From Candidatus Woesearchaeota archaeon (GTDB lineage Archaea > Nanobdellota > Nanobdellia > UBA10117 > ARS21): a DNA stretch of 57,424 nucleotides. Made by a program: the position numbers and the translations under genes. This document shows, in pieces, positions 19,120-55,048 of this stretch (its first letter is position 1; each line of letters opens with the position of its first letter). Location of the stretch: the NCBI GenBank assembly GCA_018698915.1, contig JABIPN010000006.1, positions 1 to 57,424 of the forward strand, given 5' to 3'. Under the pieces are notes generated by a model. The model ran no database searches. It saw only the letters and a program-made list of their open reading frames with translations, and was not told where the DNA came from.

Positions 19120-20322
19120 ATGTTTGAAGTTATCCTTAGTGTTGTTATTGGTTGTTTGTTAGGTGTTGTGACTGGATTAATCCCTGGGCTACATACTAAT
19201 ACTATTGCTTTAATGTTGATGAGTGTTTTATTGAGTGGTTGGTTTAGCTTAAGTGAGACTTTGTTTGTGTCGGGTGCCGTATGTATGTTAGTTGTTCATT
19301 CATTTGTTGATTATATTCCAAGTATATTTTTGGGTGCACCAAATTCAGATACTGCGCTTAGTGTATTGCCCGGACATCGGTTGTTATTGAAAGGTGAGGG
19401 ATATATCGCGCTTCGTGAAACTGTTGTTGGTGGTATAAATTCATTTTTGATTGGAATTCCGTTCTTAATTCTTTTTGGGTGGTTTATACAAAATTGGTTA
19501 GATTTTATTAAATTGTTTGTTGCGCCCGTTTTGTTAATCCTTACTACTTGGTTAATTTTAAGTGAGTCTTCATTAAAGAAAATATATTGGGCAATGCTAA
19601 TTTTTATTTTTGCAGGTGTATTGGGTTTGCTTACTTTGAATACTAGTATTGTAAAAGATCCATTATTTCCTTTATTGAGTGGATTCTTTGGAATTAGTAT
19701 ACTTTTGTTTAGTATGGGTGAAAAAAGTCATGTTCCAGATCAGAAAATTAGTGAAAGCTTTAAATTATTTAGTAGAGAAAACACATTCTTAGGATTTATT
19801 AGTTTGTTTGCAAGTAGTTTGATGGTTTTGTTTCCTAGTTTGGGTCCGACACAGAGTGCTACAGTTGCTCAAGCAGTCATGAAAAATAGTTCACAGAAAA
19901 AATTTCTTAATGTTATGGGTGGAATTAATACTTTAGACGTACTTTTCACACTTGTTATGTTGTATTTGGTTGGCTCAGCACGAAGTGGAGTTCTTGTTGC
20001 AGTTCAACAATTATTTGAAGTTACTTTTGATATATTTTTGGTTATGTTAATCTCTTTAGTTATTGGGTTGGGTTTCGGAACAATGGCTTGTTTGTATATT
20101 GGAAAACGAGTTGGAAAAATGGTTTCAAAAATTAATTACAAATTAGTTTCAATTAGTGTTATAATATTTTTGTGTTGTATGGTATTTATTATCTCGGGAA
20201 GTTGGGGGTTATTTCTTATGAGTGTTTCTACATCAATTGGATTGGTTTCACAAATTATGGGTGTTAAAAAAGTTCATGCTATGGGTGTTTTAACTATACC
20301 TACAATTCTTAATTTTAGTTAG
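19120..20322 (+). CDS. Polytopic membrane protein, TctA/DUF112-like
   Basis: About 10 TM segments. GLIPGLHTNTIALML resembles the TctA-family N-terminal motif. The ORF opens at TTG 19102; ATG 19120 is preceded by TATA-like TTTAATTA at 19088-19095. Confidence 0.5.
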   Translation: MFEVILSVVIGCLLGVVTGLIPGLHTNTIALMLMSVLLSGWFSLSETLFVSGAVCMLVVHSFVDYIPSIFLGAPNSDTALSVLPGHRLLLKGEGYIALRETVVGGINSFLIGIPFLILFGWFIQNWLDFIKLFVAPVLLILTTWLILSESSLKKIYWAMLIFIFAGVLGLLTLNTSIVKDPLFPLLSGFFGISILLFSMGEKSHVPDQKISESFKLFSRENTFLGFISLFASSLMVLFPSLGPTQSATVAQAVMKNSSQKKFLNVMGGINTLDVLFTLVMLYLVGSARSGVLVAVQQLFEVTFDIFLVMLISLVIGLGFGTMACLYIGKRVGKMVSKINYKLVSISVIIFLCCMVFIISGSWGLFLMSVSTSIGLVSQIMGVKKVHAMGVLTIPTILNFS

Positions 20323-20846
20323 ATATCAAAACTTATTGAATTTCTTCTCTGTTTATCAATTAGTTCAGTTCCTTCTTTTGTTAAATAATATTTCTTTGGT
20401 CTTGCACCAGTCCCATTAATAAATCCTCGATATTCTAGTTCAAGTAATTTATTTCTTATTGTTCGTTCTGATTTCTCCAATCCGTATGCTAGCTTTAGTT
20501 GCGTTGGCGATACTGCAAAGAATGTTGAATCTGCCTTTCCTTGTTGTAATAGGATCAAATATTGTAAATCAGACAAATTGAATAATGTTGGTTTAATTGT
20601 AGCAATTGGTTGCCGATGATTTTGTGTTGGTGCGTGTTGTTTTGGAAATTCGTTTGGAAATTCGTTTTTCCAATTACCTCTACTTTCCATTATTTTTTCC
20701 AATAGTTTTTCGTTGTTTTCTTGTAGTTTTTGCACTTTTTGTTCTAGTTTTTTTATAATTGAGTCTCGGTCGTAAATCCTTGATTTAAGTTGTTCTAGGT
20801 CACTTTTGTGATCATTTAGAATATTTCGAACAGACTTCGGAATCAT
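20319..20846 (-). CDS. Coiled-coil plus C-terminal winged-helix DNA-binding protein (unknown family)
   Basis: Heptad-rich N-terminus (LEQLKSRIYDRDSIIKKLEQKVQKLQENNEKLLEKI), Q/P-rich linker, C-terminal wH-like SERTIRNKLLELEYRGFINGTGARPKKYYLTKEG. Confidence 0.5.
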   Translation of the reverse strand: MIPKSVRNILNDHKSDLEQLKSRIYDRDSIIKKLEQKVQKLQENNEKLLEKIMESRGNWKNEFPNEFPKQHAPTQNHRQPIATIKPTLFNLSDLQYLILLQQGKADSTFFAVSPTQLKLAYGLEKSERTIRNKLLELEYRGFINGTGARPKKYYLTKEGTELIDKQRRNSISFDI

Positions 20847-20884: not shown

Positions 20885-20927
20885 TTTGAAAAATCTTTCC
20901 AGTGTTTTTTCCACAATTTTCCAATTG
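20885..20927. repeat. Copy 1 of a ~40-bp direct repeat made of TTTCCA half-sites
   Basis: tttgaaaaatctttccagtgttttttccacaattttccaattg aligns with 21027-21066 at roughly 85% identity with two small gaps. Confidence 0.8.
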
Positions 20928-20941
20928 ATTACCCTAAAGAT

Positions 20942-20963
20942 ACCCCTTCATTTCCAATGGAAC
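20942..20963 (-). other. Origin-recognition-box (ORB)-like element, full dyad plus G-string
   Basis: The minus strand reads GTTCCATTGGAAATGAAGGGGT. This is the TTCCA-n-TGGAA dyad followed by GAAAT..GGGGT, the pattern reported for Orc1/Cdc6 binding sites in archaeal origins. Confidence 0.55.
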
Positions 20964-21026
20964 TTATTTTAAATATGTATACATTGAGCCTATCAGTTTA
21001 ATTTTGTCCAGTTTGTTTGGAAAAGT

Positions 21027-21066
21027 TTTGGAAAAATCTTTCCAATGTTTTCCACTAATTTCCAAT
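21027..21066. repeat. Copy 2 of the ~40-bp TTTCCA direct repeat
   Basis: tttggaaaaatctttccaatgttttccactaatttccaatg. It overlaps the last codons of the Cas4-like ORF. A further TTTCCA follows at 21068-21073. Confidence 0.8.
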
Positions 21067-21795
21067 GTTTTCCAGAGAAGTTTGGACCTTTATTTGATTG
21101 TTTTTGTCCGTATCTTTCTTATTAAAACAAATATCATAGAATTCGCAATAATTGCATAAGTAAGACTCCTCTCTAGTAGGAGGTGTTTTTGTTTTTAGTG
21201 CATTTGAAAGAACGGTGCCTCTTGCTTCCAAATAACCACTCATATTTCTTTTTTCTACTTCAAATACTTTTATTTTACTTAGTGAGAAATAAACAATAAC
21301 TAATTTCTTTACTTCTTTTTGTTTTGATTCAGAAAGCATTGAGAAGTAAGATTGTACTTGCATAGTATGGGCAAGTTTTGGTGATTTAGGAATGCGCTCA
21401 ATTGTTTTGAACTCATACATTACATTATCTGAAAATACATCAATGAATCCTATTGCTGAAAAATTTACAAAGGGGAGTTCCAAGAATACTTCCTGTTCAT
21501 CTTCAGGAATATGATCTTGAAAGAAATTATGAATTGCGTGTCCTCTTGAAAAAATCCACAGCTTTTCTAACGAAATTGGCACTTCCTCCACCAACCCATA
21601 ATAGGAATTTCTTAAACAATGTGAAGTTAATCGCGTTACACCAAATCTTGGTTTTTTGTTTGGATCTTTCTTTTTTCTTGGTTTTTGTCCCGCAAGTAAT
21701 GCTGCAAGAACTACTCTTGGGTAGTTTTCGAACTCAGAGTTTTTTACTTCAGCGATATCTCTTACTACACCATCAGGACATAATATTTTAGTCAT
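21055..21795 (-). CDS. Cas4/Dna2-type PD-(D/E)XK nuclease with a 4-Cys Fe-S cluster (no CRISPR context)
   Basis: N-terminal Cys (TSHCLRNSYY), GHAIHNF, IGFIDVF (Asp), YEFKT (E-x-K), QVQSYF (QxxxY), C-terminal CNYCEFYDIC (C-x2-C-x5-C). 8-nt overlap with the PolD large-subunit gene. Confidence 0.7.
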   Translation of the reverse strand: MTKILCPDGVVRDIAEVKNSEFENYPRVVLAALLAGQKPRKKKDPNKKPRFGVTRLTSHCLRNSYYGLVEEVPISLEKLWIFSRGHAIHNFFQDHIPEDEQEVFLELPFVNFSAIGFIDVFSDNVMYEFKTIERIPKSPKLAHTMQVQSYFSMLSESKQKEVKKLVIVYFSLSKIKVFEVEKRNMSGYLEARGTVLSNALKTKTPPTREESYLCNYCEFYDICFNKKDTDKNNQIKVQTSLENIGN

Positions 21796-24700
21796 TGATA
21801 AAATCTCCCAGTCCTATTTGTTTTGTTGCATCTCGTCCAAAAACAGATTCTATTCGGCTATTGAATAAATTTATGGATTCTCTTAAGTATTCACTTGTTC
21901 CTTCAATTTTAATTAGTTGTAGGGTTGGTTCAAGATATTTCTTAACTGAACCTTCACTTATTGTGTAAATTACTTTTTGTTTTCCACAATTTAAACATTT
22001 TCCTGCTAGAGGTATTCTTCGATATTTTTCATTACAAGCAACGCATCTAAATCGTTGCATTGTAAATTTACGCATGTTTCCTTTAAGATCTCGAATAAAA
22101 TGTCCAGTTATTATTAATTCTCCAACTTTGTTGAGATCTACCGCCCTTATTTTTCTTGCGAGTTCTATTTGTCCTTCCATCTTCTCAACCATCGTAGGTA
22201 AATATTTGTAAGCTGATACATTTACTCCCTTATTCATATTTGATACTGAGTGTGTGAATCCATGATTTTGATATTGTTCTTCCTTATCGACTACGTCTCC
22301 AATTGATTTTACTTTTGAATCCCACGGATATTTCATTTCTAATGCTGCATTATAGAAATCTAACGAGTATTCCCAGGCTATGTTTAAATCATAAACTTCA
22401 TCATCAACTTCTTTTGAATTTAGTATTGTTGAAATAACTAATGGTGCATCCATACTTCTTGCGCCTCTTCGATCTGGAAGAAAGTCTCGTGAAAAATTAA
22501 GAAATGCGTCTAATACTAACATTATTGCAGTTTCTTCACCATCTAAATCTCTTCGCTGTGCAGCATGCCACATTGGATGTGCTAAAATTGCAGCTATATT
22601 TGAAAATCCGATAATTCTTCCTACAATTCCCGCAGAAGTATGTGGTGCTAGACCTATAACTAGTTGTCCTATTAGATCTGATTCAATAGCGATATTGTAG
22701 TGTGCAGAGATATTGTAGAGATTTACTAATGACTCATCAACAAAATCTGCAACGCGTTTTAAAACTGCTCCTGCAGATTCAATACCTAATGAGCTTTCGC
22801 TCGGTAATATTATATCTTGAGGAAATATTTCTACAAGTTGAGTTTTTTCAGTTAGTTGTTGTCCTTTGAAATCGTGCGTATATCCTAATTTATGTGCTTT
22901 TTTTATCGATAGACCAATTTCCTCAGGTGTGAAGTGTGTTGTTCCTAGTTCTGTTGCATCATACCTGACAGTTCCATCCTTATTAACCCTCAAAGAATGT
23001 TTTGCTCGGAGTACTCCTTTGACTGGATGTTCAACATAACGAAACTTGTTCATTGTTTCTCTTACACCTTTTATTAATTTTGGAAATTCACCTTCCCAAT
23101 TAGATCTTATGTTTTTTGATAATTTGGGTAATTCATACTTTCTTCTTTCATATGCAACACACTTTGGAGTTTCAGGTGAAGTGTATTTTTTCTTCGTAAA
23201 ATAATCAATATATTGTTGTTGCGTGTTTAGAGAATTACAGTGTTCACATTTTGTGAATATTGTTCTTTTTTCACAGTCAAGACATTTTATTATTGGAAAC
23301 TCTGCGGTAATGTGTCCTTTCTTTATTGATTCATTGAAAGATCTTAATCTTCCTCCTTCTGCTCCGACAGGGAATAAAAAATTTGGTGAACCTTTCATAT
23401 CTCTCATTTTTGCCTTCTCAGGTCTACCCATTCGTGCACCAATTCCAGTACCGAATTTTGGTCTGATTTGTATATCTTTGTTGAAAAACAATTTCAAAAT
23501 TGTTTTATTTAATTCTGTTAATATTATTTTGTTTTCTTTTATTTGGTGTGGGCATCCAATTAACTCCAATAATCTTTTTTCTGGTTGGTTTGCATTCATA
23601 TCTGTTGAGATATAATTTTTTAGTAGAATTATTTGTTTATTATCTAATGCATCAAAATAGAATGTGAAATTTGGGTGTATTGGTATTTTGAACTCTTGAG
23701 ATAATCTTAGCGCTGTTTCAAAATTAATAGTTGGAGGAATAAATTTATTGATAAAATCTTCAGTTAGATTGTGTTTTTTGTTTGGGTTGTTTTTTATTGC
23801 CTCTTTCAGTTCCAACAGCCACCATTCAGGACAATATCCTGGAGGTACTAGAAAATGCCCGTTTTCTGTGAATTCGCCTGGTGAGATTAACAAATCTCCT
23901 AAGTATAGGATCTCATCAACGTCTTTTGATATTTCTTTTGCTTCTTCTTCCGTTTCAAGTTTTACAACGGATCCGTCTTTTAGTTTAACAATTGGACCTT
24001 CTATTGAATCACAAGAAGTTAATGATGTTGATTTTCCTGGGCGTTCGACTCTTAGTTGTGTTCCAACTGCTAGAAAATTATCTAGTACTTGCATGGTGAT
24101 TGGAGATATTGCCCAAGATCCGTGACCTGTTAATCTTGATCTCCCATATCTCAATCTAAATCCTCCTTGTCGAAGTGGATGTGTGAATACGGGACGTCCT
24201 GCTACAATTTCAGCAATATATGCATAATTCGGTTTTAGTTTTGATTCTGATCCATCCTCGATTTCTTCTTTTGATGTTTTGGCGTGAATTCGCTTCTTTA
24301 TATCTTGATAATCATTTAACCATTGCCAATCCAATCCGAAATCTTTTCCCCATTCATTTAATTTCTTCATTACTTTGGCACCTTTGAGCGGTAGACCATC
24401 AGTGAGCATTAGTGCCATGCCCCCTCTAATTCTGTCGGTTGTTATTCGTTCCAGTCCTTTGTAATTTGATACTTGTAGTTGTGAGGTTGGATCTCCATCA
24501 ATTTCTACAGGTAAATTAGAAACAATAAATTCTATTTCTTCAATGGTTGGTTTGTATTGTTTTCTTTCTACGCGTTCATAATAATCTGTTACTTCTGTAT
24601 ACATTCGTTTTAATTCTTTATCAGTAGGATCGTATTTTTCAATTCCCTGTTGTATTCTAACATAATCTGCAATCACTGTTGTGACTGCCATTGCTGTTGC

Positions 24701-25183
24701 ACCGCCACCCCTGATTGGTCCAGCATAACATAGAGCCAAATATTTTTTTCCGTCTTTTCTGTCTTTTATTTTTACATCAATTAATCCTTCAAGTGGTGCA
24801 GATACTACTCCTTGTGTTATGTATGCGAATCCTGTTCTTACACCAATGCTTATTGCGGTTTGTTTATCTTCAAATTTGCATATTTTTTCTGAAGCAATTT
24901 CGTTCGCCAATACCAGTGCAACTCTCCAATCTCCAAAACCATATTCTTTTTCTAATTCGCTAATTCTTTGTACAACGCCGCTTCCAATTAAATTTGGCGA
25001 AATTGAACCCATAATTGCTTCAACTCTTTCTGCTACAGATGCAGCTATGGGAATGTCACAATTTAGTTGTGGGTCGATTCCGGTTTTTCTGGCAGTGTTT
25101 GCAATATCATGCAATTCTAAAGTTTCGGATTTTAATTCTGAGAAATACTTCTTAATTTGTGTTGAAGCAATAATGTCTGACAT
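21788..25183 (-). CDS. DNA polymerase II (PolD) large catalytic subunit DP2
   Basis: 1131 aa, colinear with archaeal DP2. Cys-rich Zn modules CLDCEKRTIFTKCEHC and CVACNEKYRRIPLAGKCLNC. Length shows no intein. Confidence 0.93.
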   Translation of the reverse strand: MSDIIASTQIKKYFSELKSETLELHDIANTARKTGIDPQLNCDIPIAASVAERVEAIMGSISPNLIGSGVVQRISELEKEYGFGDWRVALVLANEIASEKICKFEDKQTAISIGVRTGFAYITQGVVSAPLEGLIDVKIKDRKDGKKYLALCYAGPIRGGGATAMAVTTVIADYVRIQQGIEKYDPTDKELKRMYTEVTDYYERVERKQYKPTIEEIEFIVSNLPVEIDGDPTSQLQVSNYKGLERITTDRIRGGMALMLTDGLPLKGAKVMKKLNEWGKDFGLDWQWLNDYQDIKKRIHAKTSKEEIEDGSESKLKPNYAYIAEIVAGRPVFTHPLRQGGFRLRYGRSRLTGHGSWAISPITMQVLDNFLAVGTQLRVERPGKSTSLTSCDSIEGPIVKLKDGSVVKLETEEEAKEISKDVDEILYLGDLLISPGEFTENGHFLVPPGYCPEWWLLELKEAIKNNPNKKHNLTEDFINKFIPPTINFETALRLSQEFKIPIHPNFTFYFDALDNKQIILLKNYISTDMNANQPEKRLLELIGCPHQIKENKIILTELNKTILKLFFNKDIQIRPKFGTGIGARMGRPEKAKMRDMKGSPNFLFPVGAEGGRLRSFNESIKKGHITAEFPIIKCLDCEKRTIFTKCEHCNSLNTQQQYIDYFTKKKYTSPETPKCVAYERRKYELPKLSKNIRSNWEGEFPKLIKGVRETMNKFRYVEHPVKGVLRAKHSLRVNKDGTVRYDATELGTTHFTPEEIGLSIKKAHKLGYTHDFKGQQLTEKTQLVEIFPQDIILPSESSLGIESAGAVLKRVADFVDESLVNLYNISAHYNIAIESDLIGQLVIGLAPHTSAGIVGRIIGFSNIAAILAHPMWHAAQRRDLDGEETAIMLVLDAFLNFSRDFLPDRRGARSMDAPLVISTILNSKEVDDEVYDLNIAWEYSLDFYNAALEMKYPWDSKVKSIGDVVDKEEQYQNHGFTHSVSNMNKGVNVSAYKYLPTMVEKMEGQIELARKIRAVDLNKVGELIITGHFIRDLKGNMRKFTMQRFRCVACNEKYRRIPLAGKCLNCGKQKVIYTISEGSVKKYLEPTLQLIKIEGTSEYLRESINLFNSRIESVFGRDATKQIGLGDFIND

Positions 25184-25204
25184 ACTAAATTCATTATGAT
25201 GATG

Positions 25205-25212
25205 TTTAAATA
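25205..25212. promoter_or_regulatory. Single quasi-symmetric TATA element shared by two divergent genes
   Basis: TTTAAATA lies 22-29 nt from the DP2 ATG (25183, minus) and 20-27 nt from the ATG at 25232 (plus). Confidence 0.45.
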
Positions 25213-25231
25213 TGATTGTGTGAAAAAGTAT

Positions 25232-25570
25232 ATGATGAAAACGCGTGGAAGAGGTCGTCCTGCATTTAGTCCAATACGGAATAATTTAGTTGAATTGTTG
25301 TTTTTTGTTGGTGAAGGTTATGGTTATGAATTATATAAAAAATATATACAGGTTTTTCATAAAACAACTATGCGATCGGTTTATTATCACTTGAATAAGG
25401 GTGTTGAATTGGGTGTTTTTAAAATTGAAAAAATTGAAAATATTCCAGGATCTTATTCCTGGGGTGAAGGTGTTCGGAGAGTTGTATTTACTCTCGGAGA
25501 AAATGCTGAACCTAAAAAAGATACTCGAGTTTTAAAACGATTGAAGATTGTTGAAAAAAATAACCCCTGA
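25232..25570 (+). CDS. Small winged-helix (PadR/ArsR-like) DNA-binding protein
   Basis: YGYELYKKYIQVFHKTTMRSVYYHLNKGVELGVFK. The ORF opens at 25196, but Met13 (25232) gives canonical TATA spacing and a 48-bp divergent intergenic region. Confidence 0.5.
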   Translation: MMKTRGRGRPAFSPIRNNLVELLFFVGEGYGYELYKKYIQVFHKTTMRSVYYHLNKGVELGVFKIEKIENIPGSYSWGEGVRRVVFTLGENAEPKKDTRVLKRLKIVEKNNP

Positions 25571-25718
25571 GCCCTTGATTTCTACTGGAGATTTCATTTT
25601 TATATTAAATTTCATTTTTTCTCTTCTTTCTTTTCTATATTGAAAATAATAATATAATAATAAACAAATTTGATAAAAATATAAACAATAAAATAAGTTC
25701 TATAAGAAATAAAGGGGT
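25570..25718. other. Predicted chromosomal replication origin (two inverted ORB-like boxes flanking an AT-rich unwinding element)
   Basis: 25570-25591 reads TCTCCAGTAGAAATCAAGGGCT on the minus strand. 25697-25718 reads GTTCTATAAGAAATAAAGGGGT on the plus strand. Between them is ~105 bp at about 10% G+C by hand count. The orc1/cdc6 ATG lies 120 bp downstream. Confidence 0.6.
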
Positions 25719-25837
25719 AGGAGGTATTCAAAACAATCATACGTCAAAAGTACAAGCCTTAAGTATAGTGCTTTTATAAAAATATTAGCGTGTCAAGAGG
25801 ATAAATTATTTTAAGGTACATTTCTTATGGAAAGTTT

Positions 25838-27118
25838 ATGACGGATAATCAAACATCTCTTGATAAAAAATTCAAATCAGAAGAAGACAAAAAAAATACT
25901 TCTGAAACTAAGCGAGAAAGAGATGAACTTGACGATTTATTTGACGATTTTGTATCTAAAGAATCTTTATTCAAGGATAAGGATGTTTTATCTTTGCGTC
26001 ACGTTCCAAATACAATACCTCATCGTCAAAAACAAATCAAAAAACTAGGCATGATTTTAGCACCAGCTTTACGAAATGATCGACCTTCAAATATTTTTAT
26101 ATATGGTAAAACTGGAACTGGAAAAACACTTTGCACACTCCACACATTGAATCGGATTGTTGAACGAGTTAAAGATAGCGATGTTAATCTAACGTTTGCA
26201 TATCTCAACTGCAAATTAAAAAAAGTTGCAGATACTGAATATAGAATAATTGCTGCACTTGCTAAAAATTTAGGTGAAAAAGTTCCAGCAACAGGATTAC
26301 CCACAGATGAAGTATACAATATTTTTTTGAAAAAATTAGATGAAACTGAACAAGTTGTAATCTTAGTTTTAGATGAAATAGATAGACTTGTACAGAAAAC
26401 AGGTGACGAAATTCTTTACACCTTAACTAGAATTAATTCTGAACTTAAACGAGCAAAATTATGTTTAATTGGAATTTCAAATGATGTACGTTTTATTGAG
26501 AATATAGATCCGCGAGTAAAGAGTTCATTAAGTGAAGAAGAATTAATTTTTCCACCATACAATGCTCTTGAATTAAAAGATATTCTAAGTGAAAGATCGG
26601 AATTAGCGTTTACAAAAGACGTAATTAACAGCGGAGTTCTTGCAAAGTGTGCAGCATATGCAGCAAAGGAACACGGTGATGCTCGTCGTGCGTTAGATCT
26701 ATTAAGAGTTGCGGGCGAAGTTGCAGAACGCGCAGCAGCAGATAGTGTTGAAATGGAACATATACGTGAGGCAGAAGATAAAATTGAGAAAAATAGAATC
26801 TTAGAATTAGTTAAGACATTACCAAACCAATCCAAAATTTTGATATATTCAATATTTTTTCTAAACAAACAAAAACATAAACTTGAAACTGGAGAGATTT
26901 ATGAAGCATATGCTGATTTATGCAAAGTTAATGATACTTCAATTTTAACCCAAAGAAGAATATCTGACTTAATTTCAGAATTAGATATGTTGGGTTTAAT
27001 TAATGCAAGAGTAATAAGTAAAGGCAGACACGGGAGAACTCGAGAAATATATTCCACAATACCTTCAGATTTAACTGAAATAATGAGTTCGGAATTGAGA
27101 GTTGAATTAATGTTATGA
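25838..27118 (+). CDS. cdc6: Orc1/Cdc6 replication initiator
   Basis: AAA+ Walker A IYGKTGTGKT, Walker B VLDEID, sensor regions, C-terminal winged helix. ATGA overlap with the PolD small subunit gene. Confidence 0.92.
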   Translation: MTDNQTSLDKKFKSEEDKKNTSETKRERDELDDLFDDFVSKESLFKDKDVLSLRHVPNTIPHRQKQIKKLGMILAPALRNDRPSNIFIYGKTGTGKTLCTLHTLNRIVERVKDSDVNLTFAYLNCKLKKVADTEYRIIAALAKNLGEKVPATGLPTDEVYNIFLKKLDETEQVVILVLDEIDRLVQKTGDEILYTLTRINSELKRAKLCLIGISNDVRFIENIDPRVKSSLSEEELIFPPYNALELKDILSERSELAFTKDVINSGVLAKCAAYAAKEHGDARRALDLLRVAGEVAERAAADSVEMEHIREAEDKIEKNRILELVKTLPNQSKILIYSIFFLNKQKHKLETGEIYEAYADLCKVNDTSILTQRRISDLISELDMLGLINARVISKGRHGRTREIYSTIPSDLTEIMSSELRVELML

Positions 27119-28485
27119 GTAATCAAGAAATTGTAAAGAAATTATTAGATAAAGGAATCCTACCCACAGCTGAAAATATAGCTCAAGAATCCACAAATGT
27201 AACAATTGTAAAACCGCGAATTGATGATTTAAGAGCAAGAGTAAAGATTGTAAAAGAATTTGATTATAAACAGAAAAAAATCACAGCAGATGATTTCACC
27301 ACACACTACAGAGAAAGATACAAAACAATGAGGACTATATTATTTAATCGACCTGAAGCTGCATCAGCAGTATCCATTGATCGCGTAAAAGATATGCTTT
27401 CAGATGAAGATCAAGTTATTATTGGAATCGTTTCAGATGTAGCTAGAATGTATACTGGAACTGTCAAACTTATTGTGGAGGATTTAACTAGTCAGATTAC
27501 AGTCATCATATCCTCAAAAAATAATGATTTGATTGAAGAAGCTAAGTTTTTGACCTTAGATGAAGTCTTAATATTCAAAGGTCGTGTTAGAAAGGGAGTT
27601 ATGTTCTTACACGCCATCATACGACCAGATGTTCCACAGAAGAAAGAAACATTTAGTCCCGAAGAAGTTTATTCAGTCTTCTCCGGAGATATACATGTAG
27701 GTTCAAATCTATTTTTACCAAAGCAATTTTCAAATTTTATTGATTGGTTGAGTGGAAAAGTAGGAACTGAACGACAACGAGAAATTGCAAGAAAGACCAA
27801 ATATTTTTACATTCCAGGAGATCTTGTTGATGGAATTGGTATTTATCCTGGACAAGAAAAAGAACTAAAGATTACTAATTTAAGAAGTCAGTATGAAGAA
27901 TTATCAAAATTTTTATCTAGAGTTCCTGATGACAAACAAATAATAATTTGTCCAGGAAATCATGACTCTGGTGTCCGATTGGAGGAACCTCAGCCACGCA
28001 TGCAAGATTATGCAGAATCAATACTCGAACTTCCAAACGTAACAATGGTAACAAACCCGTCTTACACAAATATTCACTCAATGGATAATTATTCTGGACA
28101 AGATGTTTTAATGTATCATGGATATTCCTTTGACAGATTAATTGATCAAGTTGAAGGTTTGAGATTGGCAGGTGGTTATGAAAAAGCAGATGAAATTCAC
28201 AAGTTTTTATTGAAAAGAAGGCATTTGAGCCCATCACATAATTTGAATCTAACAATCCCTATGAAACAAGACTCACACATCATTTCACAAATTCCAGATA
28301 TAATGGTTTCAGGACATATTCATAAAGCAAATATTGGAAATTATAAAAACACAATTTCAATTTCTGGAAGTTGTTGGCAAGCAGTAACTGATTTTCAACT
28401 CAAATTTGGACACGTACCAGATCCTGGAATGATTCCAATCATAAATCTAAAAACACGAAAAGGTAGTATGCTCAGTTTCAAATAA
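27115..28485 (+). CDS. DNA polymerase II (PolD) small exonuclease subunit DP1
   Basis: OB-fold region followed by calcineurin-like phosphoesterase motifs GDIHVGS, IPGDLVDGIG, PGNHD, SGHIH. Confidence 0.9.
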   Translation: MSNQEIVKKLLDKGILPTAENIAQESTNVTIVKPRIDDLRARVKIVKEFDYKQKKITADDFTTHYRERYKTMRTILFNRPEAASAVSIDRVKDMLSDEDQVIIGIVSDVARMYTGTVKLIVEDLTSQITVIISSKNNDLIEEAKFLTLDEVLIFKGRVRKGVMFLHAIIRPDVPQKKETFSPEEVYSVFSGDIHVGSNLFLPKQFSNFIDWLSGKVGTERQREIARKTKYFYIPGDLVDGIGIYPGQEKELKITNLRSQYEELSKFLSRVPDDKQIIICPGNHDSGVRLEEPQPRMQDYAESILELPNVTMVTNPSYTNIHSMDNYSGQDVLMYHGYSFDRLIDQVEGLRLAGGYEKADEIHKFLLKRRHLSPSHNLNLTIPMKQDSHIISQIPDIMVSGHIHKANIGNYKNTISISGSCWQAVTDFQLKFGHVPDPGMIPIINLKTRKGSMLSFK

Positions 28486-51650: not shown

Positions 51651-52646
51651 TTATGCAGATTCAATACCTTTTGCAGTTATCTTGAATATTGCTTCACCTT
51701 CAGGTAAACAAGGAGAATCTACTAATCTTGCAATTCTTTTTCCGGCCTTTCCCCGTCTTAAATATATTCTGAATTGAGATGCATGTCCAAGAATGTGTCC
51801 ACCAATTGCTGCAGTAGGATTTCCAAAGAATACATCAGGTCTTGATTGAACTTGATTTGTTATGTATATTGCTAAATTATGTTTGTCTGCTAAACGTTGA
51901 AGTGAATGCAGGTGCCTATTCAGTTTTTGTTGTCGGACTGCCAAAGTTCCTCGTCCAGCATATTCTGAACGGAATAAACTCATCAAAGAGTCTACAATTA
52001 CTAGTTTGATATTTTTACCTTGTCTGTGAATTAATTCATCGACTTTATCAACTAAAAGCATTTGATGATCTGAAGTATAAGCTCTTGCAACCATAATTCT
52101 ATCCAATATTTTTTTAGGATTCAATCCTCTGGCTTCCGCCATTTGAGTTATTCGTTCAGGTCTAAAAGTATTTTCAGTATCAATGAATACAACGTCAGCA
52201 TTCAGACCACCTTTCTTTTTAGGTAATTGTACATTGACTGCCAATTGCATTGCAATTTGAGATTTTCCCGAACCAAATGCACCATATGTTTCACTAATAC
52301 TTTGAGTTTCAATACCTCCTCCGAGAAGTTCATCTAACTCTGGAGCACCAGTTGTTAATCTTTCAATAGTTGTACGTTTTTTTACTAATTCCGAACCTGT
52401 TGAAAAGCCCATATCCATAGCATTCCGTGCAGCAATTTGTGCTTTCATTGCCCCAGCCTGAGTCATTCCAGAAGAATCTGCAATTTGTGCAACTGGCGCA
52501 ACTGCAATAGACATTATTGTATCATACCCTGCTTCCCTAAGTTTATCTGCAGTTGTTGGTCCAACACCTGGAAGATCTTCAAGTTCTTTAGGAACTTCTT
52601 CTTCAAGTTCTTCCTTTTCAACAAGTTTTTCTTTTTCCTTTACCAT
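51651..52646 (-). CDS. radA: RadA recombinase
   Basis: N-terminal HhH ([20 protein letters not shown]), Walker [10 protein letters not shown], Walker B LVIVDSL. 331 aa. Confidence 0.93.
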
Positions 52647-53647
52647 TATTTCTTCCCGAGCATTTGCTCTACAATTTTCTTTGGGTCTAAGTTATTATTT
52701 ACTGAATTAACTGAAAGTTCAGTGCGATCATAAGCTTTATTTTCTCTAATTGTTCCCTGAATTTCAATTACACTTCCTAAAAATTCTACTGCAATTTCTT
52801 CAATTGGTTTAGCTAAAATTATTTCACTAAGTTCATCAGCGTTCATTCCAACTAATTCTTCTCCACTCGATCCAAAACACGTCGCTCTAATGTTTCCCTT
52901 ACCATCATCAATTACAAAATTGAAAATTAAGGTTTTATTTGCTTTAACATCACCATGAGTTGAACATTTGAATTTATCGCCATCTGGACTGACCTTTTTT
53001 CTACATTCAGGACAGGCATCATAGAATCTAGGTTCTGCTACATTTACAACAGTTCCTCTAATGTTTACAGGATTACCTAAAATTGGTTTATCGAGAGATG
53101 TATCTTCTGCTTTCTGTTCCTTTGCTTCTGAGATTTTTACATCCAATTCATCTTGATTTATCAGAATTTGACTGCGCGAAGTTAATTGCATTTCTTTTCC
53201 AGAATACTTATTTTCTTTTATACTTGAACCTTTGATTCTAACAACATCACCAAGATTTAATCTTGATTCTTTAACTAAATCTGCTCTTTTATCCCAAAGA
53301 GTTGTTCTAATTTGTCCAGTTTCATCTGCTAACATAATTGGAACAAAATCAATCGTCCTTCCGTCTCTTTTGAAATTTCTAGTCTCAAAGATTTGCGCGA
53401 CTTTTGCTACAAGTTCAACACCACTCATTCCTGGATGCATTTCTTTAATTTTCAGAACCTTAGTTGCTGGATCTTCAAATAATTTTACATTTAATTCTGA
53501 TGCAATAATATATGCTGCTCCTTCTTCAGACACAAGATCCTTTAGTGAATCCATTTTTTCTTTTATTTTTTCTTTGACTTCGTCTTCGGATAATCCAGCT
53601 TGTCCTGCAATTTTTTTAATAATCTCATCGATAGGTACATGAATCAT
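52646..53647 (-). CDS. Replication protein A-type ssDNA-binding protein (two OB folds, one with a zinc ribbon)
   Basis: OB1 ([16 protein letters not shown]...[12 protein letters not shown]), OB2 interrupted by CPECRKK..x..CSTHG. 1-nt stop/start overlap with radA. Confidence 0.8.
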
Positions 53648-53707
53648 TTTACAGTTCCACCTACTTTAGTTTTAAGCTTTTATTTACTAAATTGGTGGTG
53701 ACAGAAT

Positions 53708-55048
53708 TTATATTGTTTTATTTTGATTAACGTCACCTTTTTCCTTTACAGCTTCAATTAGTGATTTTAACATAGCATTAGGAATTGCCTTAGGATTTGA
53801 ACCTCCGTGCCATGAATTTCTTGGCCGGATTTGCACTTGCATAATTTTTTCATTCGTATCGTCTAAAATTATTGCAGAACCTCCAACTCTTGGCAACGAA
53901 TCAAGATTTTTTTGCAAATCTGTTGCAAGATATGACTGCATAACTTCATTAAGTGCTTTAAGATCCATATTTGAAGTTAGACGATGAGAAATTACTGTGT
54001 CTGATTGAGTCATTACATCTGTATCAATCTTTCCTGGTTGCTGAGTTGCTAAAATTAATGATATTCCTGGCTGCCTACCTTCCTTTAATATTCGTCTAAG
54101 TGCTCCACTCGCTAAAGTTGATCCCTCGCGAGGTAAGAATTCATGAGCTTCATCAATTAATATCCATAAGAGTGGTGCCTTTTTTTCTCCAAATTCACCA
54201 CTTATTTCTTTAAGCTCTTCTTTTCTTCGTTCAGACATTCTAGATCTTATTACATAATTACATATGTGAGATATTATTAATGAACGAATCATGTCTCCAT
54301 CATCTGATTCTGCATAAGGTGATAGATCAATTATGGCAGTCTGTCCACCATCCGTAAGTTCAATAAGATTGGTACCTGCTTCATCAAAAATCCCCCATTT
54401 TTTTATTGCCCTCAATTTACTCAAAATTAGTTTCGCATCATTTTCGTCTGCATCTTTATCATTTTTGATTGATTTCATTAACTGATTTAATGAAAAATTT
54501 GGAGTATCTTCTTTTATTATTGCAATTGCACGTTCGAGAAGCAAACTTGCCATACTAAGTTCATCAATTTTAAAAATTTCAGACCATTCTTTTGCACTCA
54601 TAGTGTTTGGTTTTATTGCCAGAGGTTTGTCTGCAGGAAATCCTTCTCTTTGGTATTCATCGAATTTTCCAATCGGGCTATAAACAGTTATGTCTGCAGC
54701 CTTCGGTTCTAATTTCCATTCACTCAATAGTTTCGCATCACGAAGGTTTGGATTTTTCATACTCCAATAAATTCCCATCGTGTCAAAAATTATTGTAGAA
54801 ATGTTTTGTTTGATTTCAGGTTCTAAGTCTGCAATTCCTTCAGCTATAACGCCTAAAGTGTAAGATTTACCTGAGCCTCTTTTTCCGGCGATTAGAATTG
54901 CATGAGGTTTGTTAATATCTAAATGAATTGGATTTGCAAGAGATAAAGCACGTTCCATTTGAACATAATGTTTTCCTAGAAGAATTGTTCCTTTAGTTCC
55001 TAGCAATCTTTGATCTTTTGGTGAACGTCCAATTATGATTTCATACAT
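53708..55048 (-). CDS. HerA/FtsK-superfamily (DUF87-type) P-loop ATPase
   Basis: Walker A IAGKRGSGKSYT near residue 55, Walker B ILIDEAHEFLP, ILATQQPGKIDTDVMTQSDTVISHRL block. It lacks the long HAS-barrel N-terminus of canonical HerA. Confidence 0.65.
   Translation of the reverse strand: MYEIIIGRSPKDQRLLGTKGTILLGKHYVQMERALSLANPIHLDINKPHAILIAGKRGSGKSYTLGVIAEGIADLEPEIKQNISTIIFDTMGIYWSMKNPNLRDAKLLSEWKLEPKAADITVYSPIGKFDEYQREGFPADKPLAIKPNTMSAKEWSEIFKIDELSMASLLLERAIAIIKEDTPNFSLNQLMKSIKNDKDADENDAKLILSKLRAIKKWGIFDEAGTNLIELTDGGQTAIIDLSPYAESDDGDMIRSLIISHICNYVIRSRMSERRKEELKEISGEFGEKKAPLLWILIDEAHEFLPREGSTLASGALRRILKEGRQPGISLILATQQPGKIDTDVMTQSDTVISHRLTSNMDLKALNEVMQSYLATDLQKNLDSLPRVGGSAIILDDTNEKIMQVQIRPRNSWHGGSNPKAIPNAMLKSLIEAVKEKGDVNQNKTI

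What the first reader, a model, noticed from the sequence alone, without database searches (positions are those of the whole stretch)
21055..25183. Fe-S Cas4/Dna2-type nuclease translationally coupled to the PolD catalytic subunit
The 246-aa ORF has the full PD-(D/E)XK set (GHAIH, IDVF, E-x-K, QxxxY) plus the 1+3 cysteine Fe-S arrangement seen in Cas4, AddB and the Dna2 nuclease domain. Its start overlaps the DP2 stop by 8 nt, and there is no CRISPR or cas context anywhere in the window. A 5'-flap or end-processing nuclease co-expressed with the replicative polymerase beside origin-like DNA suggests a replication or Okazaki-maturation role rather than adaptation. I am not aware of this being a described partnership.
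Basis: partly seen in the sequence, partly recalled or inferred. Interest (0 to 1): 0.6.

Follow-up and report, generated by a model that had tools for sequence, protein, structure and literature searches.

The report
Solo Cas4 nuclease coupled to PolD
A tiny marine DPANN archaeon, and most of its order, encodes a CRISPR-independent Cas4-type iron-sulfur nuclease immediately after the gene for its replicative DNA polymerase, which hints at a replication or repair role that remains unproven.

Summary
ORF 21055-21795(-) encodes a 246-aa Cas4-family PD-(D/E)XK nuclease with every catalytic motif and the C...CX2CX5C cysteines invariant across orthologs. Its ATG overlaps the PolD DP2 stop by 8 nt.

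- **Family:** Pfam Cas_Cas4 is above cut-off and the NCBIfam cas4 equivalog is below it. The AF2 model's best match is Cas4 SSO0001, followed by human EXO5, type I-C Cas4 and MGME1.
- **CRISPR independence:** The 524-kb, 88%-complete genome has no Cas1 and no CRISPR array. A same-genus relative carries a type V-A locus with its own canonical Cas4 and still keeps this gene.
- **Conservation:** Orthologs occur in 32 of 38 order-level relatives. DP2->cas4L adjacency holds in 23 of 26 named Woese/Pacearchaeota loci, with a -20 to +6 nt junction in 19 of 26.
- **Limits:** None of 60 solo-Cas4 loci from other orders of the class has DP2 nearby, and one genus has separated the two genes. About 27% of same-strand gene pairs in this genome overlap, and an unrelated transporter gene is also syntenic.
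- **C-terminal motif:** Variable tails end in a conserved QxxL motif, a PIP-box first half. A few orthologs have LxxFF; the window's QTSLENIG has no aromatic residues.

Solo-Cas4 in DPANN is already published. The PolD operon link appears undescribed. A replisome-linked 5'-end or flap nuclease is the best reading, but it is inferred.

The parts
21055..21795 (-). cas4L: 246-aa solo Cas4-family Fe-S PD-(D/E)XK nuclease gene (stop codon 21055-21057)
   Evidence: ORF. Pfam PF01930 38.1 bits above cut-off; TIGR00372 45.5 bits, below its cut-off of 65. PHROG 1706 92 bits. AF2 pLDDT 80.8; Foldseek top match 4IC1 SSO0001 at E 1e-8. Orthologs at 44-80% identity in 32 of 38 order-level relatives.
21646..21795 (-). 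N-terminal ~50-aa extension (residues 1-50), absent from canonical Cas4. C6 is invariant, followed by the basic linker KPRKKKDPNKKPR
   Evidence: Alignment A1: distant orthologs carry CP.G...CxxCxxC (zinc-ribbon-like), while the window's family keeps only C6. The SSO0001 alignment begins later. Modelled at pLDDT 73-85.
21124..21645 (-). Nuclease core (residues 51-224): C60, GHAIH 85-89, D119, E128-x-K130, Q146/Y150, C214-x2-C217-x5-C223
   Evidence: These residues are all invariant in A1. They align with SSO0001 motifs EIK, QLQIY and CKYCIFSVIC.
21058..21123 (-). Disordered C-terminal tail (residues 225-246), ending QTSLENIGN
   Evidence: pLDDT below 50 for residues 226-246. Tail length and sequence vary among orthologs.
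21061..21084 (-). Q238-T-S-L-E-N-I-G245: a PIP-like QxxL motif without aromatic residues. The LENIGN codons belong to the TGGAAA repeat array
   Evidence: 25 of 36 distinct long tails have Qxx[LIMV] starting in the last 9 residues, against a shuffled mean of 2.1 and maximum of 7. DNA reading.
21788..21795 (-). 8-nt overlap ATGACTAA between the cas4L start and the DP2 stop
   Evidence: The junction gap is -20 to +6 nt in 19 of 26 distinct related loci.
21805..21809 (-). GGGAG, a Shine-Dalgarno-like stretch 9 nt before the cas4L ATG, inside the DP2 PIP-box codons
   Evidence: Read from the sequence. GGAGG-like strings occur at the same place in relatives. Function is inferred.
21788..25183 (-). 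PolD large catalytic subunit DP2 (1131 aa)
   Evidence: PolC_DP2_N, PolC_DP2_central and PolC_DP2_cat at E 3e-81 to 4e-104.
21797..21820 (-). DP2 C-terminal canonical PIP box Q-I-G-L-G-D-F-I
   Evidence: Sequence. Conserved as KQxxLxx[FW][FILM] in all related DP2 C-termini. Own-genome Fen1 ends QSGLGEFL.
20885..21080 (.). TTTCCA/TGGAAA hexamer array with an ORB-like dyad (TTCCATTGGAAA at 20951-20962, plus GGGG) between cas4L and the next gene, overlapping the cas4L 3' end
   Evidence: 10 hexamers in 220 nt against a window mean of 0.36. The same position holds 13-14 hexamers in same-genus loci and 5-7 in three others. The dyad alone is not above chance.
20319..20846 (-). 175-aa coiled-coil plus winged-helix protein, conserved downstream of cas4L
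   Evidence: Detected downstream of cas4L in 12 of 26 named loci and 15 of 19 relatives' loci, including all six loci where DP2 is absent. The wHTH is weakly Csa3/CasR-like (TIGR01884 27.5 bits, PADLOC CasR 25.9 bits).
25196..28485 (+). Divergent partner cluster: 124-aa ORF, Orc1/Cdc6 (25838-27118) and PolD small subunit DP1 (27115-28485)
   Evidence: Pfam. The arrangement DP1<-Cdc6<-orf124 | DP2->cas4L is conserved in the loci whose flanks reach far enough.

Best explanation
cas4L is a vertically inherited, CRISPR-independent ('solo') Cas4-family nuclease. It has a PD-(D/E)XK active site (D119, E128, K130) and a four-cysteine Fe-S module, preceded by a lineage-specific N-terminal mini-domain and followed by a disordered tail. 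In one order of Nanoarchaeia (NCBI labels Woesearchaeota/Pacearchaeota) it is the second gene of a DP2-cas4L operon inside the replication gene island (DP1-Cdc6 | DP2-cas4L-[repeat array]-wHTH). It is most likely made together with the PolD catalytic subunit.

The most likely mechanism is inferred from characterised relatives: SSO0001 Cas4, EXO5, MGME1 and the Dna2 nuclease domain. The enzyme would thread free 5' single-stranded DNA ends and degrade or clip them. It would act on 5' flaps or 5' ends created at replication forks, in lagging-strand maturation alongside Fen1 or in processing and restart of broken or stalled forks. In many orthologs a terminal QxxL(xxFF) peptide could tether it to PCNA.

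Shown here: family and fold, intact catalytic and cluster residues, independence from CRISPR, order-wide conservation, tight operon-like junction with DP2, and a conserved C-terminal linear motif. Inferred: co-transcription, nuclease polarity, PCNA binding, and any role in replication.
For: - **Family and fold:**. Foldseek order is SSO0001 Cas4 (E 1e-8), human EXO5 (1e-5), type I-C Cas4, RecE, AdnAB, MGME1.
- **Core gene:** orthologs in 32 of 38 order-level relatives with genomes of 0.3-1.2 Mb. Cas1 occurs in only 2 of those 38.
- **Independent of CRISPR:** same-genus G001 has a complete Cas12a-Cas4-Cas1-Cas2-array locus with its own Cas4 at 218 bits, in addition to the DP2-linked gene.
- **Adjacency:** 16 of 19 relatives' loci and 23 of 26 named loci, the two sets overlapping in part, spanning at least four GTDB families (f1, f3, f7, f8).
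- **Junction:** -20 to +6 nt in 19 of 26 distinct loci.
- **Replication and recombination context:** Orc1/Cdc6, DP1, DP2, PolB, RadA, RadB and RPA all lie in the same 57-kb window.
- **C-terminal motif:** QxxL is enriched 12-fold over shuffles. Full hydrophobic halves occur in P0038 (QKTLATIF), P0032 (SSLKKFF), P0034/P0035 (GLKNFF) and P0028 (NLNNFF). Bona fide PIP boxes in the same genome are also C-terminal.
Against: - No expression or biochemical data exist.
- Overlapping neighbours are common in this compact genome: 27% overlap and 37% lie within 6 nt.
- Synteny of this region is generally conserved, including an unrelated TctA transporter gene, so conserved order need not mean partnership.
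- The adjacency is restricted to one order (0 of 60 solo-Cas4 loci elsewhere in the class).
- It has been broken in one genus without loss of the gene.
- The window protein's motif QTSLENIG lacks the aromatic pair.
- 23 of 59 distinct tails are shorter than 15 residues, and the typical short tails (FNRDK.., FDKKVDFID) carry no such motif.
- Fen1 is present, so no gap in Okazaki maturation demands this enzyme.
Confidence: 0.5

Rival explanations
1. It is a general DNA repair or recombination nuclease (for example end resection for RadA-mediated repair) with no specific tie to PolD. The DP2 adjacency would reflect genome compaction and slow rearrangement of the origin-proximal region.
For: Overlaps are common. 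The unrelated TctA gene is also syntenic. The adjacency is order-restricted and was lost in one genus. The published view is that solo-Cas4 in small genomes has an 'uncharacterized defense or repair' function (PMC5704561). RadA, RPA, a HerA-like ATPase and Rad50 are present.
Against: A simple 'replacement of NurA' version is rejected. NurA is found in 22 of 38 order relatives, nearly all of which also carry cas4L. DP2->cas4L is the best-kept same-strand junction of the locus apart from Cdc6-DP1, and it stays tight across 44-80% protein divergence. The PIP-like terminus points to a clamp-associated process.
Confidence: 0.3
2. It is a CRISPR-independent defence or anti-mobile-element nuclease, or a relic of an ancient adaptation module kept together with a Csa3-like regulator.
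For: The closest profile is a viral one (PHROG 1706, 92 bits). There is weak similarity to rudivirus Cas4. The conserved downstream gene has a Csa3/CasR-like winged helix. The cas4L-wHTH pair persists where DP2 has moved away.
Against: It is single-copy and vertically conserved, sits among core replication genes rather than in a defence island, and has no other defence genes beside it. The wHTH similarity is weak (about 26 bits). Published analysis found that solo-cas4 evolves like ordinary housekeeping genes (PMC5704561).
Confidence: 0.13
3. It is a bona fide adaptation Cas4 serving a CRISPR-Cas locus elsewhere in the genome, possibly in the unassembled 12%.
For: The genome is only 88% complete. 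A same-genus relative has a type V-A locus.
Against: There is no Cas1 and no array in the own genome. Cas1 occurs in 2 of 38 relatives against cas4L in 32 of 38. The relative's V-A locus has its own Cas4. The score is below the NCBIfam cas4 equivalog cut-off.
Confidence: 0.02

Closest known systems
Archaeal solo-Cas4 (COG1468/PF01930; structural example SSO0001, PDB 4IC1), as surveyed in Hudaiberdiev et al. 2017 (PMC5704561)
   Same: It has the same RecB-type motifs, the same C...CX2CX5C cluster ligands and the same fold. It is encoded outside any cas locus in a DPANN genome lacking CRISPR-Cas, exactly the class that paper describes.
   Different: It is a divergent branch (38 bits to Pfam, below the NCBIfam equivalog cut-off). 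It has an extra ~50-aa N-terminal mini-domain and a tail with a terminal QxxL motif. It has a conserved operon position after PolD DP2. The word 'polymerase' does not occur in that paper.
Eukaryotic EXO5 (human EXO5, PDB 7LW7-7LWA)
   Same: It is a single-domain Fe-S PD-(D/E)XK nuclease and the second-best structural match (E 1e-5, TMq 0.44-0.46). By established knowledge EXO5 loads on 5' ssDNA ends and acts in fork restart and mitochondrial genome maintenance, which is the kind of role proposed here.
   Different: Only 14-15% identity. No sequence-level membership was shown. EXO5 is not genomically linked to a polymerase.
Dna2 nuclease domain / AddB / RecB nuclease domains
   Same: They share a homologous nuclease core with an Fe-S cluster spanning the active site. 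Dna2 processes long 5' flaps alongside Fen1 (established knowledge).
   Different: There is no helicase domain. The whole protein is 246 aa. NCBI's label 'Dna2/Cas4 domain-containing protein' refers only to the domain.
MGME1 (mitochondrial genome maintenance exonuclease 1)
   Same: It is a PD-(D/E)XK ssDNA nuclease working with a replicative polymerase on 5' flaps (established knowledge) and is a structural match (E 2e-3, TMq about 0.43).
   Different: MGME1 has no Fe-S cluster (my knowledge). It is eukaryotic and the relationship is distant.
Thermococcales origin-proximal replication operon (Cdc6/Orc1-DP1-DP2-RadB in Pyrococcus; recalled from memory, not checked here)
   Same: It is an oriC-proximal cluster of Orc1/Cdc6 and both PolD subunits with one extra genome-maintenance gene following DP2.
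   Different: There the extra gene is the RadA paralog RadB and all genes are co-directional. Here DP2 is divergent from Cdc6-DP1 and the extra gene is a Cas4-type nuclease.

Membership tests
Cas4 family (Pfam PF01930 / COG1468) | Profile score above the curated threshold | tested here: met
   PF01930 scores 38.1 bits against a cut-off of 22.7. Whole-genome scan gives 38.7 bits.
Cas4 family (Pfam PF01930 / COG1468) | RecB-type PD-(D/E)XK motifs (D, ExK, QxxxY) | tested here: met
   D119, E128, K130, Q146 and Y150 are invariant in 30 sequences and align to SSO0001.
Cas4 family (Pfam PF01930 / COG1468) | Four Cys (1 N-terminal plus CX2CX5C) that ligate an Fe-S cluster | tested here: met
   C60, C214, C217 and C223 are invariant. 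Presence of the cluster itself cannot be tested in silico.
Cas4 family (Pfam PF01930 / COG1468) | Cas4 fold | tested here: met
   AF2 pLDDT 80.8. Foldseek 4IC1 at E 1e-8, TMt 0.58-0.61.
CRISPR-associated Cas4 (NCBIfam TIGR00372 equivalog; CAS-Cas4) | Score above the equivalog cut-off | tested here: not met
   45.5 bits against a cut-off of 65.
CRISPR-associated Cas4 (NCBIfam TIGR00372 equivalog; CAS-Cas4) | Encoded with cas1/cas2 or next to a CRISPR array | tested here: not met
   No Cas1 and no array. The neighbours are DP2 and a wHTH gene.
Dna2 | Nuclease domain fused to an SF1B helicase domain | tested here: not met
   The 246-aa protein has only Cas_Cas4/PDDEXK_1 matches.
AddB/RecB-type helicase-nucleases | Nuclease domain at the C-terminus of a helicase(-like) polypeptide | tested here: not met
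   It is a single-domain protein. Longer homologs found in the 1.8-billion-protein library have N-terminal parts with no Pfam match.
EXO5 family | Fold and Fe-S arrangement like EXO5; sequence-profile membership | tested here: inconclusive
   Foldseek E 1e-5, TMq 0.44-0.46, rmsd 9-11 A. No EXO5 profile appeared among the Pfam hits.
PCNA-interacting (PIP-box) proteins | Terminal Q-x-x-[LIM]-x-x-[FWY]-[FWY] | tested here: not met
   The window protein ends QTSLENIGN, with no aromatics. The first half QxxL is conserved in 25 of 36 long tails. Full hydrophobic halves occur in about 5 orthologs. Own-genome DP2 and Fen1 have canonical boxes.
PCNA-interacting (PIP-box) proteins | Physical binding to PCNA | not testable with these tools
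   No complex prediction or binding assay was available. PCNA is present in the genome.
Operon / translational coupling with DP2 | Same strand, start overlapping or abutting the upstream stop, conserved in relatives | tested here: met
   8-nt overlap. The gap is -20 to +6 nt in 19 of 26 loci. The baseline is high, however: 27% of same-strand pairs overlap.
Operon / translational coupling with DP2 | A single transcript spanning both genes | not testable with these tools
No TATA-like box at about -26 of the cas4L ATG was visible in the sequence.

The most novel reading that the evidence does not exclude
cas4L is a dedicated replisome accessory of PolD in Woese/Pacearchaeota. It would be a clamp-tethered Fe-S 5'-flap or 5'-end nuclease made stoichiometrically with DP2 and working beside Fen1. 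That would make it a minimal archaeal counterpart of the Dna2/EXO5 nuclease function, and would give the widespread but unexplained DPANN solo-Cas4 genes a housekeeping role in replication.
Probability: 0.25. Interest if true: 0.7.

Novelty: new variant of a known kind. Interest (0 to 1): 0.42.

Why it matters
Solo-Cas4 genes occur in most archaea and are over-represented in the smallest genomes (DPANN, CPR) that lack CRISPR. Their function has been open since at least 2017 (PMC5704561). A lineage in which the gene sits in an operon with the replicative polymerase, and often ends in a clamp-binding-like peptide, yields a concrete hypothesis. The hypothesis is that the protein processes 5' ends at the replication fork. 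It can be tested with PCNA and PolD binding assays and with flap and 5'-end nuclease assays with and without PCNA. It also bears on the relationship between the Cas4 used in CRISPR adaptation and the housekeeping nucleases of the Dna2/EXO5/AddB type. If the link is only positional, the finding reduces to one more solo-Cas4 in a compact genome.

Tried and rejected
1. **NurA substitute:** rejected. NurA Pfam is not found in the own genus (0 of 5 genomes) but is present in 22 of 38 order relatives, nearly all of which also carry cas4L.
2. **Serving a distant CRISPR locus:** rejected.
3. **Adjacency beyond the order:** 60 Cas4-family loci from other families of the class were fetched and none has DP2 within 5 kb. 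They form two other solo-Cas4 groups without any well-conserved neighbour.
4. **Domain fusions as Rosetta-stone evidence:** a profile search of 1.84 billion representatives gave 1480 homologs. A few are longer proteins, but their extra parts have no Pfam match, and the ten clusters looked up, two of these longer proteins among them, carry no informative names.
5. **Phage and virus relatives:** only weak hits at 26-31% identity to rudivirus Cas4.
6. **ORB dyad significance:** the TTCCANTGGAAA match is no more than chance by count. Only the hexamer density stands out.
7. **Literature:** no held paper combines Cas4 with PolD/DP2 in DPANN, or Cas4 with a PIP box or Okazaki maturation in archaea.
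9. **Internal archaeal promoter before cas4L:** none was obvious by eye. This was not a formal test.

Full report
**1. What is there**

The window is contig C31 of a 523,628-bp assembly in 35 contigs, 88% complete. Source names on near-identical proteins and loci place it in Nanoarchaeia (Woesearchaeota/Pacearchaeota labels) from marine metagenomes.

- On the minus strand, ORF 21788-25183 encodes a complete PolD large subunit DP2. It is 1131 aa, with the N, central and catalytic DP2 domains at E 3e-81 to 4e-104.
- ORF 21055-21795 encodes the 246-aa protein of the finding.
- The two overlap by 8 nt (ATGACTAA).
- The DP2 C-terminus KQIGLGDFIND is a canonical PIP box. The cas4L start codon and a GGGAG stretch 9 nt upstream of it lie inside those codons.
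- Divergent from DP2 are a 124-aa ORF, Orc1/Cdc6 and the PolD small subunit DP1.
- Downstream of cas4L come a 208-bp non-coding stretch, a 175-aa coiled-coil/winged-helix gene and a convergent TctA transporter gene.

**2. Identity of the protein**

- Pfam Cas_Cas4 (38.1 bits, cut-off 22.7) and PDDEXK_1 are above threshold. The NCBIfam cas4 equivalog is below threshold (45.5 against 65).
- PADLOC Cas4 models score 37-45 bits. The best profile anywhere is a viral one, PHROG 1706, at 92 bits.
- In an alignment of 30 homologs at 41-93% identity, the invariant residues are G85, H86, A87, H89, D119, E128, K130, Q146, Y150, C60, C214, C217 and C223.
- A profile search of PDB sequences finds only SSO0001 Cas4 (4IC1, E 5e-4). 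The EIK, QxxxY and CxxCxxxxxC blocks are aligned.
- The AlphaFold2 model has mean pLDDT 80.8, with the core at 90 or above and the tail 226-246 below 50. Foldseek matches are SSO0001 (E 1e-8), human EXO5 (1e-5), a DinG-fused nuclease, type I-C Cas4, RecE, ACE1, AdnAB and MGME1.
- The protein differs from canonical Cas4 in two ways. It has a roughly 50-residue N-terminal extension, zinc-ribbon-like (CP.G...CxxCxxC) in distant orthologs and reduced to the invariant C6 in the window's family. It also has a variable C-terminal tail.

**3. CRISPR independence**

- The own genome has no Cas1 match and no CRISPR-like repeat array. The only regular repeat is a 3-copy, 60-nt-period tandem on contig C1.
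- The only other Cas4-domain ORF is a 485-aa protein on contig C2.
- Among 38 order-level relatives, Cas1 is found in 2 while the cas4L ortholog is found in 32.
- One of those two is a same-genus genome. It has a 6.8-kb contig with Cas12a-Cas4-Cas1-Cas2 and an array. That Cas4 scores 218 bits to the type V-A Cas4 model. The same genome also has the DP2-linked gene.

**4. Conservation of the partnership**

- In loci from genome handles, DP2 lies directly upstream on the same strand in 16 of 19 relatives.
- In 26 independently retrieved, named loci it does so in 23. The fuller arrangement DP1<-Cdc6<-orf124 | DP2->cas4L->wHTH <-TctA is visible in several of the loci whose flanks are long enough.
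- The distance between the DP2 stop and the cas4L start is -20 to +6 nt in 19 of 26 distinct loci and 35-624 nt in 7.
- The six exceptions (three in each set, partly the same genomes) include all three genomes sampled from genus g12. There cas4L follows divergently oriented genes but keeps the wHTH gene downstream.
- Outside the order, I fetched 60 Cas4-family loci from many other families of the class. None has DP2 within 5 kb. They fall into two other solo-Cas4 groups with no well-conserved neighbour.

**5. How much the adjacency means**

A crude gene call on the whole genome shows that 27% of same-strand neighbours overlap and 37% lie within 6 nt. The 8-nt overlap on its own is therefore unremarkable. 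The region's synteny also includes the functionally unrelated TctA gene.

The argument for a functional link therefore rests on three points:
- A tight same-strand junction persists across 44-80% protein divergence.
- The locus is devoted to replication.
- There is a conserved C-terminal motif, described next.

**6. C-terminal motif**

- Own-genome clamp clients end in canonical PIP boxes: DP2 QIGLGDFI, Fen1 QSGLGEFL, and PolB NTGLDNWL with N replacing the leading Q.
- Among 59 distinct cas4L tails, 36 are 15 residues or longer. Of these, 25 have Qxx[LIMV] starting within the last nine residues. Shuffling each tail gives a mean of 2.1 and never more than 7 in 2000 trials. After thinning to tails less than 50% identical, 20 of 29 keep the motif.
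- The preceding tail is unconserved and low-complexity. This is the signature of a short linear motif on a flexible tether.
- A few orthologs have the complete hydrophobic half: QKTLATIF, SSLKKFF, GLKNFF, NLNNFF.
- Most stop right after QxxL. The window protein reads QTSLENIGN without aromatics, and many lineages have lost the tail.
- In the window, the LENIGN codons are themselves copies of the TGGAAA hexamer that forms the downstream array. That part of the tail may therefore be shaped by DNA-level constraints.
- PCNA binding is plausible for some orthologs, doubtful for the window protein, and untested for all.

**7. Functional alternatives tested**

- Fen1, PCNA, PolB, RadA, RadB, RPA, two HerA-like ATPases and Rad50 are present.
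- NurA is not detected in the own genus but is present in 22 of 38 order relatives that mostly also carry cas4L. cas4L is thus not a general NurA replacement.
- No informative domain fusions exist among 1480 homologs in 1.84 billion representatives.
- Similarity to viral Cas4 is remote.

**8. Literature**

- Hudaiberdiev et al. [quoted passage not shown] They also report that some encode two, that solo-cas4 is vertically inherited, and that the function is an uncharacterised defence or repair role. The word 'polymerase' does not occur in that paper.
- A 2024 Nanobdellota paper repeats the open question.
- Searches combining Cas4 with DP2/PolD/DPANN, or with PCNA, PIP box or Okazaki, returned nothing relevant.
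- The protein class is therefore known. The PolD operon link and the terminal motif appear undescribed in the held library.

**9. Verdict**

- The best reading, at about 0.5, is a CRISPR-independent Cas4-type 5'-end or flap nuclease co-expressed with PolD and acting at replication forks or in replication-coupled repair.
- The main rival, at about 0.3, is a general repair nuclease whose position is incidental.
- Novelty is a new variant of a known kind.
- Interest is moderate. It offers a testable handle on the open question of solo-Cas4 function, but rests on comparative-genomic inference only.

Noticed in passing
window 20885-21080: This is the densest TTTCCA/TGGAAA hexamer array of the window: 10 in 220 nt against a mean of 0.36. 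It contains an ORB-like dyad TTCCATTGGAAA plus a G-string at about 20942-20964. It starts inside the last codons of cas4L. The same position holds 13-14 hexamers in two same-genus loci (L023, L024) and 5-7 in L027, L031 and L035. It is a candidate origin or binding-site array, and the dyad alone is not above chance.
   Followed up: partly
window 20319-20846 (-): A 175-aa coiled-coil plus winged-helix protein is conserved downstream of cas4L, even in the genus where DP2 has moved away. Its wHTH weakly resembles the Csa3/CasR regulator domain (26-27 bits). A Cas4-plus-Csa3-like pair could be a relic of an adaptation module or a coincidence.
   Followed up: partly
L002 691-2148 (own genome contig C2): There is a second Cas4-domain protein of 485 aa, with the nuclease domain in the first third and a long C-terminal extension. 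Similar 477-486-aa ORFs occur in relatives (G003, G005). [quoted passage not shown]
   Followed up: no
L112 (G001 contig C10, 6834 bp): A same-genus relative has a complete compact type V-A CRISPR-Cas locus: Cas12a (1344 aa), Cas4, Cas1, Cas2 and an array of about 8 repeats with a period of about 63 nt. It sits on a short contig of a 0.5-Mb DPANN MAG, so misbinning cannot be excluded.
   Followed up: partly
L045 2425-3848: DP2 in this relative is interrupted by about 1.4 kb between residues about 887 and 879 of the query alignment. This probably marks an intein in the catalytic domain. Here cas4L lies 624 nt after DP2.
   Followed up: no
window 51651-55048 (-): A HerA-like ATPase (446 aa), an RPA-like OB-fold protein (333 aa) and RadA (331 aa) form a tightly packed same-strand cluster. 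The RPA stop and RadA start abut at 52646. No NurA or Mre11 lies beside the HerA-like gene.
   Followed up: partly
alignment A1, columns 1-50 (window 21646-21795): The N-terminal extension of the cas4L clade carries 3-4 cysteines (CP.G...CxxCxxC) in distant orthologs but only the invariant C6 in the window's family. This suggests a zinc ribbon that has decayed while the fold is kept.
   Followed up: no
own genome contig C1 16343-16500: There are three copies of a roughly 43-nt repeat with a 60-nt period. It was the only regular repeat found in the CRISPR scan. The spacing is too tight for CRISPR, so it is probably a coding tandem repeat.
   Followed up: no
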